Source: Candidatus Saccharimonadales bacterium
GTDB lineage: Bacteria > Patescibacteriota > Saccharimonadia > Saccharimonadales > Saccharimonadaceae
DNA: 31,937 nucleotides
Direction of reading: 5' to 3'
Assembly: GCA_038248455.1 (NCBI GenBank)
Contig: JBBRXL010000001.1
Span: 1-31,937 of the forward strand
Notes under the pieces: generated by a model
Database searches by the model: none
What the model was told of the DNA's origin: nothing
What the model saw: only the letters and a program-made list of their open reading frames with translations
In this document: in pieces, positions 15,548-27,272 of the stretch
Layout of the letters: each line of letters begins with the position of its first letter
How positions within the stretch are numbered: position 1 is the stretch's first letter
Program-made: the position numbers and the translations under genes

Positions 15548-15608
15548 GTATTTGTTTTTGGTTTGTTGTGTTTTTATTATAGCATTTTGTGCAATATAAA
15601 TGCGAGTT

Positions 15609-15620
15609 GGGGTGAAAGGA
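15609..15620 (-). repeat. 12-bp direct copy of the tRNA-Pro 3' end (T-stem/acceptor)
   Basis: ggggtgaaagga at 15609-15620 is identical to 15690-15701 within tRNA-Pro. Confidence 0.7.
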
Positions 15621-15647
15621 TATCGTTGCGCTTCTCTGCTTGCTTAC

Positions 15648-15685
15648 AAAATAAAATAGACTACGCAAGGTAGTCTTTTTTATTT
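15648..15685 (-). terminator. Hairpin/terminator directly 3' of tRNA-Pro
   Basis: agactac/gtagtct stem with a 5-nt loop, flanked by complementary A/T tracts. Confidence 0.7.
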
Positions 15686-24078: not shown

Positions 24079-24177
24079 ATATTATTTAACCTAGCAATTG
24101 TAACAGATTGAAGGCAATAATTAAATACATAATGGTACTTTTACGGCAAGGCTAATACTGGTATAATAGCAAAACAC

Positions 24178-24252
24178 GCGGGCGTCGTATAATGGCTAAT
24201 ATGTCTGCCTTCCAAGCAAACGATGAGAGTTCGATTCTCTCCGCCCGCACCA
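24178..24252 (+). tRNA. tRNA-Gly(TCC)
   Basis: Acceptor GCGGGCG/CGCCCGC, anticodon loop CTTCCAA, T-arm GAGAG-TTCGATT-CTCTC, CCA; TGGTATAAT promoter upstream. Confidence 0.95.
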
Positions 24253-24436
24253 ATTAAAACTCCTCAGCTTGCTGGGGTATTTTAATTGGTATTCGGCTGA
24301 GAATAGAACTCTCATCGCGATTCGCTGAAAGCGAAGAGCCAGATGAGGGTTCGATAACAAGGAGCAAGACAGGAAAGTTTACTTTCACGGATGTGACGCA
24401 GTTATATCTTTAGATATTCTCTCCGCCCGCACCAAT
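24249..24436 (+). repeat. tRNA-Gly-mirrored element: hairpin, inverted T-arm copy, and a direct copy split at the T-loop
   Basis: Inverted copy 24299-24317 (18/19 to 24221-24239); direct copy 24342-24355 (13/14); exact 21-bp copy 24416-24436 = 24234-24254. Confidence 0.85.
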
Positions 24437-24450
24437 GATAGATCATTATA

Positions 24451-24477
24451 GGCGCCAGAATTGGCGTTTCTTTTTTT
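24451..24477 (+). terminator. Candidate intrinsic terminator after the tRNA-Gly element
   Basis: gcgcca/tggcgt stem with a gaat loop, followed by a T tract. Confidence 0.55.
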
Positions 24478-24503
24478 ATCATTAATAATGCTACGATAGG
24501 TAT

Positions 24504-24995
24504 ATGGAATTATTTGACCTGGTAGATACAGACGATAACATTATTGGCGTAACCAATAAAAAAGAAGCACACAGCACAGGCCAATTGCATCGAGTAGGTG
24601 CAGTGTACGTTTTTGACAGTAAGGATAGGCTATATGTTCAAGTACATAAGTCAAGTGGTGGACTATATGATCACTCTGTAGGCGGACACATATCACAAGG
24701 TGAAACCTATGCCGAGGGAACAAAGCGTGAAGCCGAAGAAGAGCTTGGTATTACGCAACCACTCGAAGAGTTGAGTATATTCTACTCAGACGAAGGCCCT
24801 GAGCTACAGCATATGTTTGGACTTTATACATGCGTAGCTGATCTTACATGGAAATTCGTTCCGAATGAAGAAGTAGATAAGATTATTCCAATGGAGATTT
24901 CGGCTATACGAGATCTTATGAATAAAGATCCCCAAAAATTTACGCAGGGGTTTATTAATACAATGTCCGAGTTTGTTCGCATAAAAGGCGAGTAA
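24504..24995 (+). CDS. NUDIX hydrolase (IPP isomerase type 1-like)
   Basis: LHRVGAVYV, Nudix box GGHISQGETYAEGTKREAEEELGI. Confidence 0.85.
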   Translation: MELFDLVDTDDNIIGVTNKKEAHSTGQLHRVGAVYVFDSKDRLYVQVHKSSGGLYDHSVGGHISQGETYAEGTKREAEEELGITQPLEELSIFYSDEGPELQHMFGLYTCVADLTWKFVPNEEVDKIIPMEISAIRDLMNKDPQKFTQGFINTMSEFVRIKGE

Positions 24996-26022: not shown

Positions 26023-26098
26023 GCCCCGGTAGCTCAGTGGATAGAGCAGAGGACTTCTAAGCCTAAGGTCGTTGGTTCGATCCCAACCCGGGGTACCA
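26023..26098 (+). tRNA. tRNA-Arg(TCT)
   Basis: Acceptor GCCCCGG/CCGGGGT, D-stem GCTC/GAGC, loop CTTCTAA, T-arm GTTGG-TTCGATC-CCAAC, CCA; weak anticodon stem. Confidence 0.9.
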
Positions 26099-26281
26099 TA
26101 TTATCAACTCATCCTTTTTTGGATGAGTTTTTAATATAATGCGGGTTGGCATTGAACCAACGACTTTTTGTATAGCAAAAAAAGTCGTTTGTTCGGTGTA
26201 GCAAATGAAATAAAAGAAAGCACCAGAGGTATTTTCTTTTATGAATGAGTGGAGGATGCTGGCAGATTCCCAACCCGGGGT
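26099..26281 (+). repeat. tRNA-Arg-mirrored element: hairpin, inverted T-arm copy, and a direct copy split at the T-loop
   Basis: Inverted copy 26142-26164 (21/23 to 26068-26090); direct copy 26184-26197 (12/14); exact 14-bp copy 26268-26281 = 26081-26094. Confidence 0.85.
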
Positions 26282-26465
26282 CAAATTGGTTATGTTTTTT
26301 AAATAAACAAGTTCTATATATGAGTAATTTGTAGTAATTAAGTCTACATTTATTATAAGCGTTTAATTGATGTAAATTTGAAATAACTGTGTATAAACCG
26401 GTCAAGCTTTTGACAATTTGTATAAATGTGTTGATAAATTACGCTAAACGTGTTACTATTTAAGT

Positions 26466-26512
26466 ACAGCGCCTTGATTTGGACTCGTTCCCGTCAAGGT
26501 TCTTTGTTTTTT
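26466..26512 (+). ncRNA. Candidate small structured RNA upstream of the NYN gene
   Basis: Promoter TTGATA(26431)-17-TACTAT(26454); stem ccttga/tcaagg (26472-26499) with inner gga/tcc pairing; T-rich tail. Confidence 0.35.
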
Positions 26513-26528
26513 ATGCTATAATTTACGA

Positions 26529-27194
26529 ATGAAAACAGTGGTTTACATTGATGGGCAAAACTTTTTATATAAGGCTTCAGAAGTTTTAATTACTGCCGGT
26601 TTAATTGCTAATAAACAAGATCTTTATAAGTTAGATATACGTGGGATAATTTCGGACATTATATCAACTGATGAAATGGAAATTAAATATTACGGTGCAA
26701 AAGTTAAAGTTATTAATCATCTTGGCGACGAGATTAAAGACAAATCTCATAAATTTTCAGATAACTCTAGACGTTTGAGGAATACTCTTAATCAACAATC
26801 TATCAAATATATAGAATCAGGAAAACTTAAGCTTCGCGATAGTGATGAATGTAAGAATTGTGGACATAAAGACTTACGTTTTCAAGAGAAGGGTGTAGAT
26901 GTTGGTATTGCAGTAGATATGATAGTTGACGCCTCAGCTGGCGATTTAGATCAGGCTGTGCTACTAAGCTCTGATACTGACCTCATTCCTGCGGTCAAGG
27001 TTGTTCGTAGCCTTATATCCAATATTGTATATATGGGATTCGTAGATAAGCTAACCAACGCTATCATCTCTCAGGTAACAAGGACTGAAACAATTCGTGA
27101 TAGTGAAATTATAGATGCATTTAACCGCTTGAATCCACAGGAAGTTCTACCTATAGAAATATCGGAAAACTCATCGGACGACCCTATTATTTAG
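26529..27194 (+). CDS. NYN-domain (LabA/DUF88, PIN-like) ribonuclease
   Basis: VYIDGQN, QEKGVDV, LLSSDTDLIP acidic catalytic motifs, CKNC knuckle; AT-rich. Confidence 0.88.
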   Translation: MKTVVYIDGQNFLYKASEVLITAGLIANKQDLYKLDIRGIISDIISTDEMEIKYYGAKVKVINHLGDEIKDKSHKFSDNSRRLRNTLNQQSIKYIESGKLKLRDSDECKNCGHKDLRFQEKGVDVGIAVDMIVDASAGDLDQAVLLSSDTDLIPAVKVVRSLISNIVYMGFVDKLTNAIISQVTRTETIRDSEIIDAFNRLNPQEVLPIEISENSSDDPII

Positions 27195-27211
27195 TAGGTT
27201 AGTATAGTTCT

Positions 27212-27272
27212 AGTTTTTAATATAGTTCGGGCTGGAATTGAACCAACGACTTTTTGCATAGAAAAAATAGTC
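27212..27272 (+). repeat. Second copy of the tRNA-Arg-derived inverted arm
   Basis: 54/61 identical to 26126-26186 by manual alignment; contains the reverse complement of the tRNA-Arg T-arm (20/23). Confidence 0.85.

What the first reader, a model, noticed from the sequence alone, without database searches (positions are those of the whole stretch)
24221..24436. tRNA-Gly is followed by a ~185-bp element built from mirrored and split copies of its own 3' half
Seen, in order after the CCA: (1) a hairpin whose arms include the ACCA itself (24249-24259/24280-24290); (2) an inverted copy of the variable loop + T-arm (24299-24317, 18/19), making 24221-24317 one ~97-nt imperfect palindrome; (3) a mini-hairpin ttcgc-tgaaa-gcgaa; (4) a direct copy gatgagggttcgat ending in the T-loop; (5) ~60 unrelated nt; (6) an exact 21-bp copy resuming in the T-loop and running through CCA. 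Deleting the ~60-nt insert rebuilds a second tRNA 3' half. Established: some tyrosine integrases cross over in the tRNA T-loop and leave a single displaced 3' copy. That does not explain the inverted arm or the split copy. Inference: a folded, attC-like recombination site or non-autonomous element templated on its host tRNA, or a cis-antisense arm that refolds the pre-tRNA.
Basis: partly seen in the sequence, partly recalled or inferred. Interest (0 to 1): 0.78.

Follow-up and report, generated by a model that had tools for sequence, protein, structure and literature searches.

The report
Gene-less structured insertion behind tRNA-Gly
The stretch after tRNA-Gly is a 182-bp, protein-less insertion from a family found behind many tRNA genes in Saccharibacteria; it re-supplies the tRNA's 3' end and carries a conserved folded core that matches no family in Rfam 15, and I found no description of it in five paper searches.

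Summary
The 182 bp between the two 21-bp copies of the tRNA-Gly 3' end is one insertion: a genome of the same genus has tRNA-Gly joined directly to the same downstream terminator and NUDIX gene. The same layout follows 8 other tRNA genes in this 657-kb genome in full, and 4 more as remnants. Each copy is built on its own tRNA and is usually 175-189 nt long. The layout is terminator hairpin, inverted copy of tRNA positions 44-77, small hairpin, direct copy of 44-57, core, direct copy of 58-77.

The "~60 unrelated nt" are the best-conserved part. This "type A" core forms a hairpin with compensatory changes, and G.U pairs outnumber A.C 18 to 3 on the tRNA-sense strand. A sibling "type C" core has 24 of 33 pairs with compensatory changes and one invariant G.U pair.

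No recombinase lies in the element. The genome has one Xer-like tyrosine recombinase and one large serine recombinase.

Best reading: a non-autonomous, tRNA-end-specific integrative element with an RNA-like core. The enzyme is unknown. This scan has noted the same family before on other CPR (candidate phyla radiation, Patescibacteria) DNA. Neither Rfam 15 nor five paper searches matched it.

The parts
24140..24167 (+). Promoter-like site of tRNA-Gly (TTTACG-16-TATAAT, with TG before the second hexamer)
24178..24252 (+). tRNA-Gly(UCC), CCA encoded
24234..24254 (+). Left 21-nt direct repeat: tRNA positions 58-76 plus AT. Present once in the empty site of a genome of the same genus.
24249..24290 (+). 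hp1: a terminator-like hairpin brought in by the element. Its A-tract and T-tract arms extend to ACCA/TGGT.
24287..24317 (+). Inverted copy of tRNA positions 44-77. It is 18/19 over 24299-24317; the acceptor-stem part, 24291-24298, is degenerate.
24321..24335 (+). Apical mini-hairpin ttcgc-tgaaa-gcgaa that caps the arm helix (P2)
24342..24355 (+). Direct copy of tRNA positions 45-59 (13/14). It pairs with 24303-24316.
24356..24415 (+). Type A core: a conserved extended hairpin (GATARCRAGGAGCARGRCAG ... CTGAAYGYGACG ... TATATC) sitting in the T-loop position of the second 3'-half copy
24416..24436 (+). Right 21-nt direct repeat (exact)
24450..24479 (+). Native tRNA-Gly terminator. It is orthologous to the terminator that directly follows tRNA-Gly in genomes without the element.
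26099..26281 (+). Sibling unit behind tRNA-Arg(UCU) (tRNA at 26023-26098), built on tRNA-Arg sequence with a type B core
27212..27272 (+). Second, truncated copy of the tRNA-Arg unit (3' side of hp1, the inverted arm and the small hairpin), lying beyond the NYN-domain gene
15606..15684 (-). Shortened remnant behind tRNA-Pro: a hairpin, about 26 nt, then a 12-15-nt copy of the tRNA 3' end

Best explanation
**What it is.** Window 24255-24436 (equivalently 24234-24415) is one integrated copy of a gene-less, roughly 180-bp mobile module that is specific for the 3' end of a given tRNA gene. It belongs to a multi-copy family found across Saccharibacteria.

**Shown here.**
- The module is an insertion bounded by a duplicated tRNA segment running from the T-loop to CCA+2.
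- It supplies a terminator directly after the intact tRNA.
- It carries an inverted copy and a split direct copy of tRNA positions 44-77. These pair to form two helices of a three-way junction.
- The third branch of the junction is a conserved core that folds on the tRNA-sense strand.

**Inferred.** The module arrives and leaves by conservative site-specific recombination within the T-loop-to-CCA segment of the tRNA gene, catalysed in trans, because it encodes nothing. The paired arms rebuild on one strand a duplex copy of the tRNA-gene target, with the core branching off at the crossover region. I therefore favour a folded single strand as the active form.

**Candidate enzymes.**
- The large serine recombinases of co-resident tRNA-end elements. 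These elements have the same three-site layout: attL, an inverted att site, and attR.
- The single Xer-like tyrosine recombinase.

The covariation pattern, and in the sibling type C an invariant G.U pair, suggest that the core also acts as RNA when transcription reads through from the tRNA.
For: **It is an insertion.** In G013 (same genus), tRNA-Gly is followed directly by the sequence that lies after the second repeat in this window. Query positions 1-161 and 317-376 abut there with a 27-nt overlap (sequences).

**It is a family.**
- In this genome the layout is complete at Gly, Arg(UCU), Glu, Met, Leu(GAG), Leu(UAG), Asn and Trp.
- It is partial at Gln, Ser(GGA), Ser(CGA) and Pro.
- Each copy matches its own tRNA.
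- Unit length is 175-189 nt in most copies, whatever the core type.

**Relatives gain, lose and repeat it.**
- In related genomes tRNA-Gly is empty, or carries a type A unit, a type B unit or a remnant.
- tRNA-His carries a type C unit in 5 of 11 loci and a composite B/C unit in a sixth.
- Tandem units occur.

**The arms follow the tRNA.** They track each genome's own tRNA variant, GAGAG against GCGAG.

**The core is conserved and structured.**
- Type A is found by BLAST in 17 of 251 genomes of the family, spread over 15 genera.
- 20 verified hits in a scan of 185,579 species are all in MAGs labelled Saccharibacteria or Patescibacteria, or left unnamed.
- In type A, 7 of 12 pairs show compensatory changes and 97.6% of cells are paired; 0 of 500 shuffles reach the observed pairing or covariation score, 1 of 500 the compensatory-pair count.
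- G.U outnumbers A.C 18 to 3 on the sense strand.
- In sibling type C, 24 of 33 pairs are compensatory and one G.U pair is invariant in 29 of 29 sequences.

**It is under constraint.** The unit is 79-86% identical between genera, while flanking coding DNA is 67-69% identical.

**Nothing is encoded in cis.** The genome has no RT, Y1 or IS110 enzyme, and has one Xer-like recombinase and one large serine recombinase (LSR).

**LSR elements share the layout.** An LSR element at tRNA-Arg in locus L210 has a perfect inverted copy, at least 70 nt long, of its tRNA-side junction. The mini unit shows the same three-site layout in a shrunken form.
Against: - No circular or excised form was seen. Only contigs, not reads, were available, and no joint skipping the 182 bp appeared.
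- No enzyme can be assigned. One genome would need a dozen site specificities but holds only two recombinases.
- LSR islands in these genomes join right after CCA and share only about 8-10 nt of identity. That differs from the 19-21-nt repeat starting in the T-loop.
- One LSR island (tRNA-Asn in G139) has no inverted site.
- The arm helices show no strand-specific wobble bias: G.T 6 against A.C 2 in P2, and 4 against 9 in P1. Evidence for single-strand folding therefore rests on the cores.
- Conservation above that of neighbouring genes would also fit a host-useful RNA that is merely duplicated and lost.
- The window's own type A copy may carry up to two broken pairs in the core helix.
Confidence: 0.55

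Rival explanations
1. It is mainly a host-useful structured RNA made from the tRNA 3' trailer, in the manner of a 3'ETS-type small RNA. It would be co-transcribed with tRNA-Gly by read-through of hp1 and end at the native terminator. On this view the tRNA-derived arms only form a stable handle or pair with the tRNA, and the apparent mobility is just duplication and loss.
For: - Strong covariation, a G.U excess on the sense strand and an invariant G.U pair in the cores.
- Recurrent GCUUGC and GNRA-like loops.
- The unit is always co-oriented with the tRNA and lies between the tRNA promoter and a terminator, with no promoter of its own.
- The unit is better conserved than neighbouring coding DNA.
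Against: - A terminator-like hairpin precedes the unit.
- Presence and absence differ within one genus. There are tandem copies, truncated copies, and different core types on the same tRNA-specific arms.
- An exact 21-nt duplication of the target bounds the unit.
- No RNA data exist for this organism.
Confidence: 0.25
2. It is a decayed scar: the attL and attR remnants left after classical integrases inserted larger islands at the tRNA and most of each island was later deleted. It would have no function of its own.
For: - Direct repeats of a tRNA 3' end are the classical mark of integrase-mediated insertion (Islander, PMC4383910).
- Gene-carrying islets with such repeats occur in the same genomes: tRNA-Met on contig C4, and tRNA-Gly, Gln and Asn in G139.
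Against: - Random deletions would not produce the same 175-189-nt layout at a dozen tRNAs.
- They would not produce cores conserved across 15-30 genera with compensatory changes.
- They would not make a unit better conserved than nearby genes.
Confidence: 0.08
3. It is a by-product of replication: fold-back or template-switch synthesis at the terminator hairpin and the palindromic T-arm created an inverted and a direct duplication (a DUP-TRP/INV-DUP-like product), with no dedicated machinery involved.
For: - The tRNA 3' half, hp1 and the inverted copy form one continuous palindrome of about 97-110 nt.
- Truncated forms holding only hp1 plus the inverted copy exist.
Against: - This does not explain the conserved cores at a near-fixed T-loop position.
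- It does not explain the constant unit size.
- It does not explain arm and apical sequences shared across genera.
Confidence: 0.05

Closest known systems
Genomic islands and prophages that integrate into tRNA or tmRNA genes by tyrosine integrases with T-loop crossover (Williams 2002, from my own knowledge; Islander database, PMC4383910)
   Same: - The target is the 3' part of a tRNA gene.
- The element restores the tRNA.
- A displaced copy of the segment from the T-loop to the 3' end marks the far end.
- Arrays build up at one tRNA.
   Different: - The unit is only 182 bp, with no integrase and no genes.
- It has an extra inverted copy of the target.
- The second direct copy is split in the T-loop by a conserved structured core.
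- A dozen tRNA specificities occur in a genome with one Xer-like tyrosine recombinase.
Folded single-strand recombination sites: integron attC and the CTX-phage attP(+) hairpin used by XerCD (from my own knowledge)
   Same: - Two inverted copies of a target-like sequence pair on one strand to rebuild a duplex site that is irregular at its centre.
- Structure is conserved while sequence varies.
- The enzyme acts in trans.
   Different: - The target is a tRNA gene, not attI or dif.
- No IntI is present; the integron-integrase model scores 136 bits against a 265-bit cut-off.
- The central irregularity is a 60-90-nt structured branch.
- Recombination has not been shown.
Large serine recombinase (LSR) elements of CPR bacteria that insert at the CCA end of tRNA genes and keep an inverted spare att site. 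This comes from earlier notes of this scan and was verified here at locus L210.
   Same: - Same hosts and same targets.
- Same order: tRNA-side junction, then an inverted copy of that junction, then a distal tRNA-like end.
- LSR genes occur in 29 of 34 genomes of this genus.
- LSR elements also use a unit's distal repeat as a landing site.
   Different: - The units carry no recombinase.
- The unit's repeat is 19-21 nt and starts in the T-loop. The LSR islands seen here share about 8-10 nt of identity at the CCA end.
- The LSR elements I examined have no type A, B or C core.
MITEs and CIME-type cis-mobilisable elements, that is, non-autonomous derivatives of insertion sequences (IS) or integrative conjugative elements (ICEs)
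   Same: - Small, gene-less and multi-copy.
- Dependent on an enzyme encoded elsewhere.
- Flanked by a duplicated target sequence.
   Different: - There are no terminal inverted repeats.
- The target is one specific gene per lineage.
- The internal arms copy the target.
- The core shows RNA-type covariation.
Small RNAs derived from tRNA 3' external transcribed spacers, such as 3'ETS-leuZ of E. coli (from my own knowledge)
   Same: A structured, non-coding stretch lying between a tRNA and the operon terminator, on the same strand.
   Different: - Here the stretch is an insertion bounded by target repeats.
- It is preceded by its own terminator-like hairpin.
- It repeats behind many tRNAs.
- Expression was not tested.

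Membership tests
tRNA-integrating genomic island or prophage (tyrosine integrase) | Direct repeat of the tRNA 3' segment at both ends, with an intact tRNA at one end | tested here: met
   Exact 21-nt repeat at 24234-54 and 24416-36. The tRNA scores 59.1 bits.
tRNA-integrating genomic island or prophage (tyrosine integrase) | An integrase gene inside the element | tested here: not met
   The 182 bp hold no gene. The only Pfam PF00589 (Phage_integrase) match in the genome is Xer-like and lies on contig C14.
Integron gene cassette attC | An IntI integrase and an attI platform in the genome | tested here: not met
   TIGR02249 scores 136 bits against a 265-bit cut-off. The protein passes the XerA cut-off instead.
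Integron gene cassette attC | Imperfect inverted repeats that fold on one strand, with structure conserved and sequence variable | tested here: inconclusive
   The arms pair and the cores covary. The arms themselves show no strand bias, and no R-box consensus was looked for.
IMEX (integrative elements that exploit Xer) | Integration at the chromosomal dif site | tested here: not met
   The site is a tRNA gene. The only dif-like candidate, found near the G139 terminus (position 572761), does not resemble the T-arm. That candidate is unverified.
CPR serine-recombinase tRNA-end elements | A large serine recombinase gene reading into the tRNA 3' end | tested here: not met
   Absent from the unit. 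It is present elsewhere: G000 contig C44 positions 820-2310, the tRNA-Asn island of G139, and L210.
CPR serine-recombinase tRNA-end elements | An internal inverted copy of the tRNA-side junction | tested here: met
   hp1 plus the inverted arm is an inverted copy of the tRNA end plus the left arm of hp1. L210 has the same feature over at least 70 nt.
MITE | Terminal inverted repeats and a short target-site duplication, derived from an IS | tested here: not met
   The ends of the unit are not inverted repeats of each other. No IS110 or Y1 transposase, and no reverse transcriptase, was found.
Any Rfam 15 RNA family | A covariance-model match at or near the gathering score | tested here: not met
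   Only the tRNAs pass. All other matches have E above 0.01 and scores far below the gathering scores.
tRNA 3'-trailer (3'ETS) small RNA | A stable transcript processed out of the tRNA precursor | not testable with these tools
   No RNA run holds this DNA. The single read-laying run returned only contigs.

The most novel reading that the evidence does not exclude
The units are a new class of protein-less mobile elements whose conserved sense-strand core is a working RNA: a scaffold, guide or ribozyme. Together with the tRNA-derived arms, this RNA would direct or process the unit's own site-specific insertion at the 3' ends of tRNA genes by recruiting a host or helper recombinase. That would amount to RNA-assisted targeting of tRNA genes in ultra-small bacteria.
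Probability: 0.15. Interest if true: 0.9.

Novelty: new variant of a known kind. Interest (0 to 1): 0.68.

Why it matters
tRNA genes are the classical landing sites of mobile DNA, but the known elements there carry their own integrase. This family is about 180 bp and gene-less. It still restores the tRNA, copies its target in both orientations, and carries cores whose covariation is as strong as that of established RNA families.

It is common in Saccharibacteria, which have tiny genomes of 0.6-1 Mb and little spare DNA. By BLAST, type C alone is in about a quarter of the sampled genomes of the family.

- If the units are mobile, they mark an unrecognised route by which these bacteria build gene islets at tRNA genes.
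- If the cores are RNAs, they add several new RNA classes tied to tRNA loci.
- Practically, the units break assemblies and can be misread as att scars or pseudo-tRNAs.

Tried and rejected
- **Rfam 15.** Searched at gathering threshold and at E up to 10 on the window units, and at E up to 1 on type C loci. Nothing but tRNAs.
- **Known self-cleaving ribozymes.** I looked for hammerhead-like motifs by eye and found no CUGAUGA...GAAA core. No ribozyme family matched in Rfam.
- **Enzymes in the genome.** No reverse transcriptase or Y1/HUH transposase in this genome, and no IS110 transposase in this or four related genomes. Retro-element, IS200/605 and bridge-RNA readings are therefore unsupported.
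- **Viral contigs.** The type A 20-mer gave 0 hits. The type C 3' motif gave only chance hits in GC-rich phages. No phage-borne parent was found.
- **Cores as remnants of a serine-recombinase C-terminal coding tail.** Rejected. The reading frame relative to CCA shifts with the 2-4-nt spacer, and by my own reading of the aligned spacers 7 of 18 units carry a stop in that frame.
- **Wobble-asymmetry and compensation tests on the tRNA-derived arms.** Counts were too small and showed no strand signal.
- **Junction mini-palindrome TATATC-N(2-4)-GATAT.** Too short to be a hairpin in many copies. Its meaning is unknown.
- **Read-level search for circles or empty alleles.** Only Logan contigs were available for the one run that holds this DNA. 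No skip joint across the element appeared.
- **dif-site comparison for a Xer/IMEX model.** One weak candidate in G139, with no likeness to the T-arm.
- **Islets next to units.** These carry accessory genes only (DUF1801, NT5C, a hydrolase and small membrane proteins) and no recombinase, apart from the tRNA-Asn island of G139.
- **Paper searches.** Five searches and two papers opened. None describes this element.

Full report
**1.
- ARAGORN and Rfam place tRNA-Gly(UCC) at 24178-24252.
- The repeat finder returns the exact 21-nt direct repeat (24234-54 / 24416-36) and the 19-nt inverted repeat (24221-39 / 24299-317, 95%).
- It also returns the hairpin that includes ACCA/TGGT (24249-68 / 24271-90) and the 14-nt direct copy (24342-55, 93%).
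- The mini-hairpin lies at 24321-35.
- As single-stranded DNA the stretch folds into three hairpins with z = -4.3 against shuffles.
- A Logan contig from the one public run that holds this DNA covers 24225-24800 without a difference, so the layout is not an assembly artefact.

**2. It is an insertion.**
- In a genome of the same genus (G013), the window's positions up to the tRNA 3' end and the positions from the second repeat onward are adjacent, overlapping by the repeat.
- There, the tRNA is followed at once by the terminator and NUDIX gene that here lie beyond 24436.
- The unit is therefore the 182 bp holding the terminator-like hairpin (hp1), the inverted copy, the small hairpin, the direct copy of 44-57, the 60-nt core and one copy of the repeat.
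- A promoter-like site precedes the tRNA (24140-67). Both hp1 and the native terminator (24450-69) score as terminators on the + strand. No promoter is found inside the unit.

**3. It is one member of a family.** I scanned the whole 657-kb genome (75 contigs, 77% complete).
- The same order of parts follows tRNA-Arg(UCU), Glu, Met, Leu(GAG), Leu(UAG), Asn and Trp.
- Only hp1 plus the inverted arm follows Gln, Ser(GGA) and Ser(CGA). tRNA-Pro has a short remnant.
- In every case the parts are built from that tRNA's own sequence.
- The distance from CCA to the end of the distal repeat is 175-189 nt in most units, whatever the core.
- At least four core types exist. In type A (Gly, Trp) the repeat starts at A58. 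In type B (Arg, Glu, Asn) it starts at 59/60. In type C (common in relatives) it starts at C56. Type D is seen at Met and Leu(GAG).

**4. What relatives show.**
- tRNA-Gly is empty in several genomes of the genus. It carries type A in G000, G022 and (distally) G014, type B in G010, and a remnant in G004.
- tRNA-His is empty here, but carries type C in five of eleven related loci and a composite B/C unit in a sixth. Some have a second unit in tandem.
- The arms follow each genome's own tRNA variant (T-stem GAGAG or GCGAG).
- Units for one tRNA also share arm and apical-hairpin sequences across genera. Trp units from four genomes share the same departure from the tRNA (GGTGCGAT). The arms are therefore inherited with the element rather than copied afresh at each insertion.
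- The same Gly-specific arms occur with a type A or a type B core, so the parts recombine.
- Gene-carrying islets of 1.5-9.4 kb can lie between a tRNA and a distal unit.

**5. The core is the conserved, structured part.**
- Type A is detectable by BLAST in 17 of 251 genomes of the family, in 15 genera.
- An exact-pattern scan of one genome per species (185,579 species) gave 39 hits. By my own estimate about 35 would be expected by chance for the bare 20-mer.
- Twenty of those hits also have the second motif. All twenty are in MAGs labelled Saccharibacteria or Patescibacteria, or left unnamed.
- On 24 distinct type A cores, the predicted extended hairpin is paired in 97.6% of cells. Seven of 12 pairs have compensatory changes, and 0 of 500 shuffles reach the observed pairing or covariation score (1 of 500 the compensatory-pair count).
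- G.U pairs outnumber A.C mismatches 18 to 3 on the tRNA-sense strand.
- Type C is present in 62 of 251 genomes and 30 of 95 genera. It is multi-copy and sits behind at least 14 different tRNAs.
- On 29 sequences, type C has 33 pairs in three helices, 24 of them with compensatory changes and 98.2% paired. One G.U pair is invariant in all 29.
- Neither core matches any Rfam 15 family.
- Between genera the unit is 79-86% identical, while adjacent coding DNA is 67-69%.
- Taken together, selection acts on an intrastrand fold of the sense strand. That is typical of RNA and also possible for single-stranded DNA.
- The tRNA-derived arms give no such strand signal. They are almost always identical to the tRNA, so few informative mismatches exist.

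**6. Enzymes.**
- The unit encodes nothing.
- The genome has no reverse transcriptase or Y1 transposase, and neither it nor four related genomes has an IS110 enzyme.
- It has one tyrosine recombinase, which is Xer-like and is present once in every genome of the genus.
- Large serine recombinases (LSRs) occur in 29 of 34 genomes of the genus, including this one (contig C44, next to tRNA-Gln).
- These LSR elements insert right after the CCA of a tRNA, or after the CCA of a unit's distal repeat.
- Following a lead from earlier notes of this scan, I checked one LSR element (tRNA-Arg, locus L210). Beyond the recombinase gene it carries a perfect inverted copy, at least 70 nt long, of its tRNA-side junction.
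- The mini unit has the same three-site order: tRNA end | left arm of hp1; then right arm of hp1 | inverted tRNA end; then the distal tRNA end. The segment between the inverted junctions is shrunk to the hp1 loop.
- This makes a serine recombinase acting in trans a concrete candidate. The fit is imperfect, however. The LSR islands seen here share only about 8-10 nt with the tRNA end, one has no inverted site, and no LSR element I examined holds a type A, B or C core.

**7. Most likely mechanism.**
- Shown: the unit is an insertion bounded by a duplicated target segment. It belongs to a multi-copy, modular family with gains and losses. Its core folds on the sense strand. It has no enzyme in cis.
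- Inferred: it moves by conservative site-specific recombination within the T-loop-to-CCA segment.
- In this model, the inverted arm (continuous, 44-77) and the split direct arm (44-57 + 58-77) pair to rebuild a duplex copy of the target on one strand. The core branches at the centre. This resembles the folded attC and CTX attP sites.
- The alternative or additional role of the core as an RNA, made by read-through from the tRNA promoter, is well supported by the covariation pattern. Expression has not been tested.
- I put 0.55 on the 'non-autonomous integrative element with a structured core' reading, 0.25 on a primarily host RNA, and little on scars or replication accidents.

**8. Comparison and novelty.**
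- The closest known kinds are tRNA-targeting islands, folded single-strand att sites, the CPR serine-recombinase elements, MITE/CIME-type non-autonomous elements, and tRNA-trailer small RNAs.
- The unit fails a defining test for each of the first four. It has no integrase, no IntI/attI, no recombinase gene and no terminal inverted repeats. It cannot yet be tested for the last.
- Five paper searches and two papers opened gave no description.
- Earlier agents of this scan met the same family on other CPR genomes and also found no description. That is not independent evidence, but it does show that the family is widespread.
- I rate it a new variant of a known kind (tRNA-targeting integrative DNA). 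The boldest reading my evidence does not exclude, an RNA-assisted mechanism, gets 0.15.

Noticed in passing
window 26126-27272: An AT-rich NYN-domain gene (26529-27194) lies between the full tRNA-Arg unit and a second, truncated copy of that unit's hp1, inverted arm and hairpin (54/61 identical). A 69%-identical NYN protein lies near tRNA-Met genes in another genome of the genus (L203).
   Followed up: partly
G000 contig C4 19997-20560 (outside the window): tRNA-Met is followed by a 490-bp islet holding a 92-aa gene. The islet is closed by an exact 23-nt copy of the tRNA 3' end that starts at T54. It has no inverted arm and no core, so it is a plain att-flanked islet next to the structured units.
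   Followed up: partly
G000 contig C44 665-2310 (outside the window): A 496-aa large serine recombinase gene converges on tRNA-Gln(UUG). A second, slightly different tRNA-Gln(UUG) on contig C5 carries only hp1 plus an inverted arm.
   Followed up: partly
L004, L244-L273 (related genomes): The type C core is a roughly 92-nt motif of three helices (four stems). It has 24 of 33 pairs with compensatory changes and an invariant G.U pair, matches nothing in Rfam 15, and often sits at contig ends, so it probably breaks assemblies.
   Followed up: yes
L029 / L038 (G205:C2 ~150.4-150.7 kb): A unit with tRNA-Gly-type arms and a truncated type A core sits directly behind tRNA-Leu(CAA). Its inverted arm is a chimera of a Gly T-stem and a Leu-like T-loop, and cargo genes follow it.
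   Followed up: no
L210 3577-5471 (G152): A serine-recombinase element at tRNA-Arg(UCU) has its recombinase gene flanked by perfect inverted repeats at least 70 nt long. These end in TACCA / TGGTA, so the recombinase segment looks invertible.
   Followed up: partly
L023 / L217 (G133 and a related MAG): A serine-recombinase reading frame runs without a stop through the reverse complement of a whole type A Trp unit, for 64 codons after the CCA. The frame is not conserved in other units, so this is probably chance.
   Followed up: yes
window 24405-24420 and homologues: A small palindrome, TATATC-N(2-4)-GATAT, straddles the boundary between the core and the repeat in type A units. It covaries (ATAC...GTAT in some copies), but its spacer is often too short for a hairpin.
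   Followed up: partly
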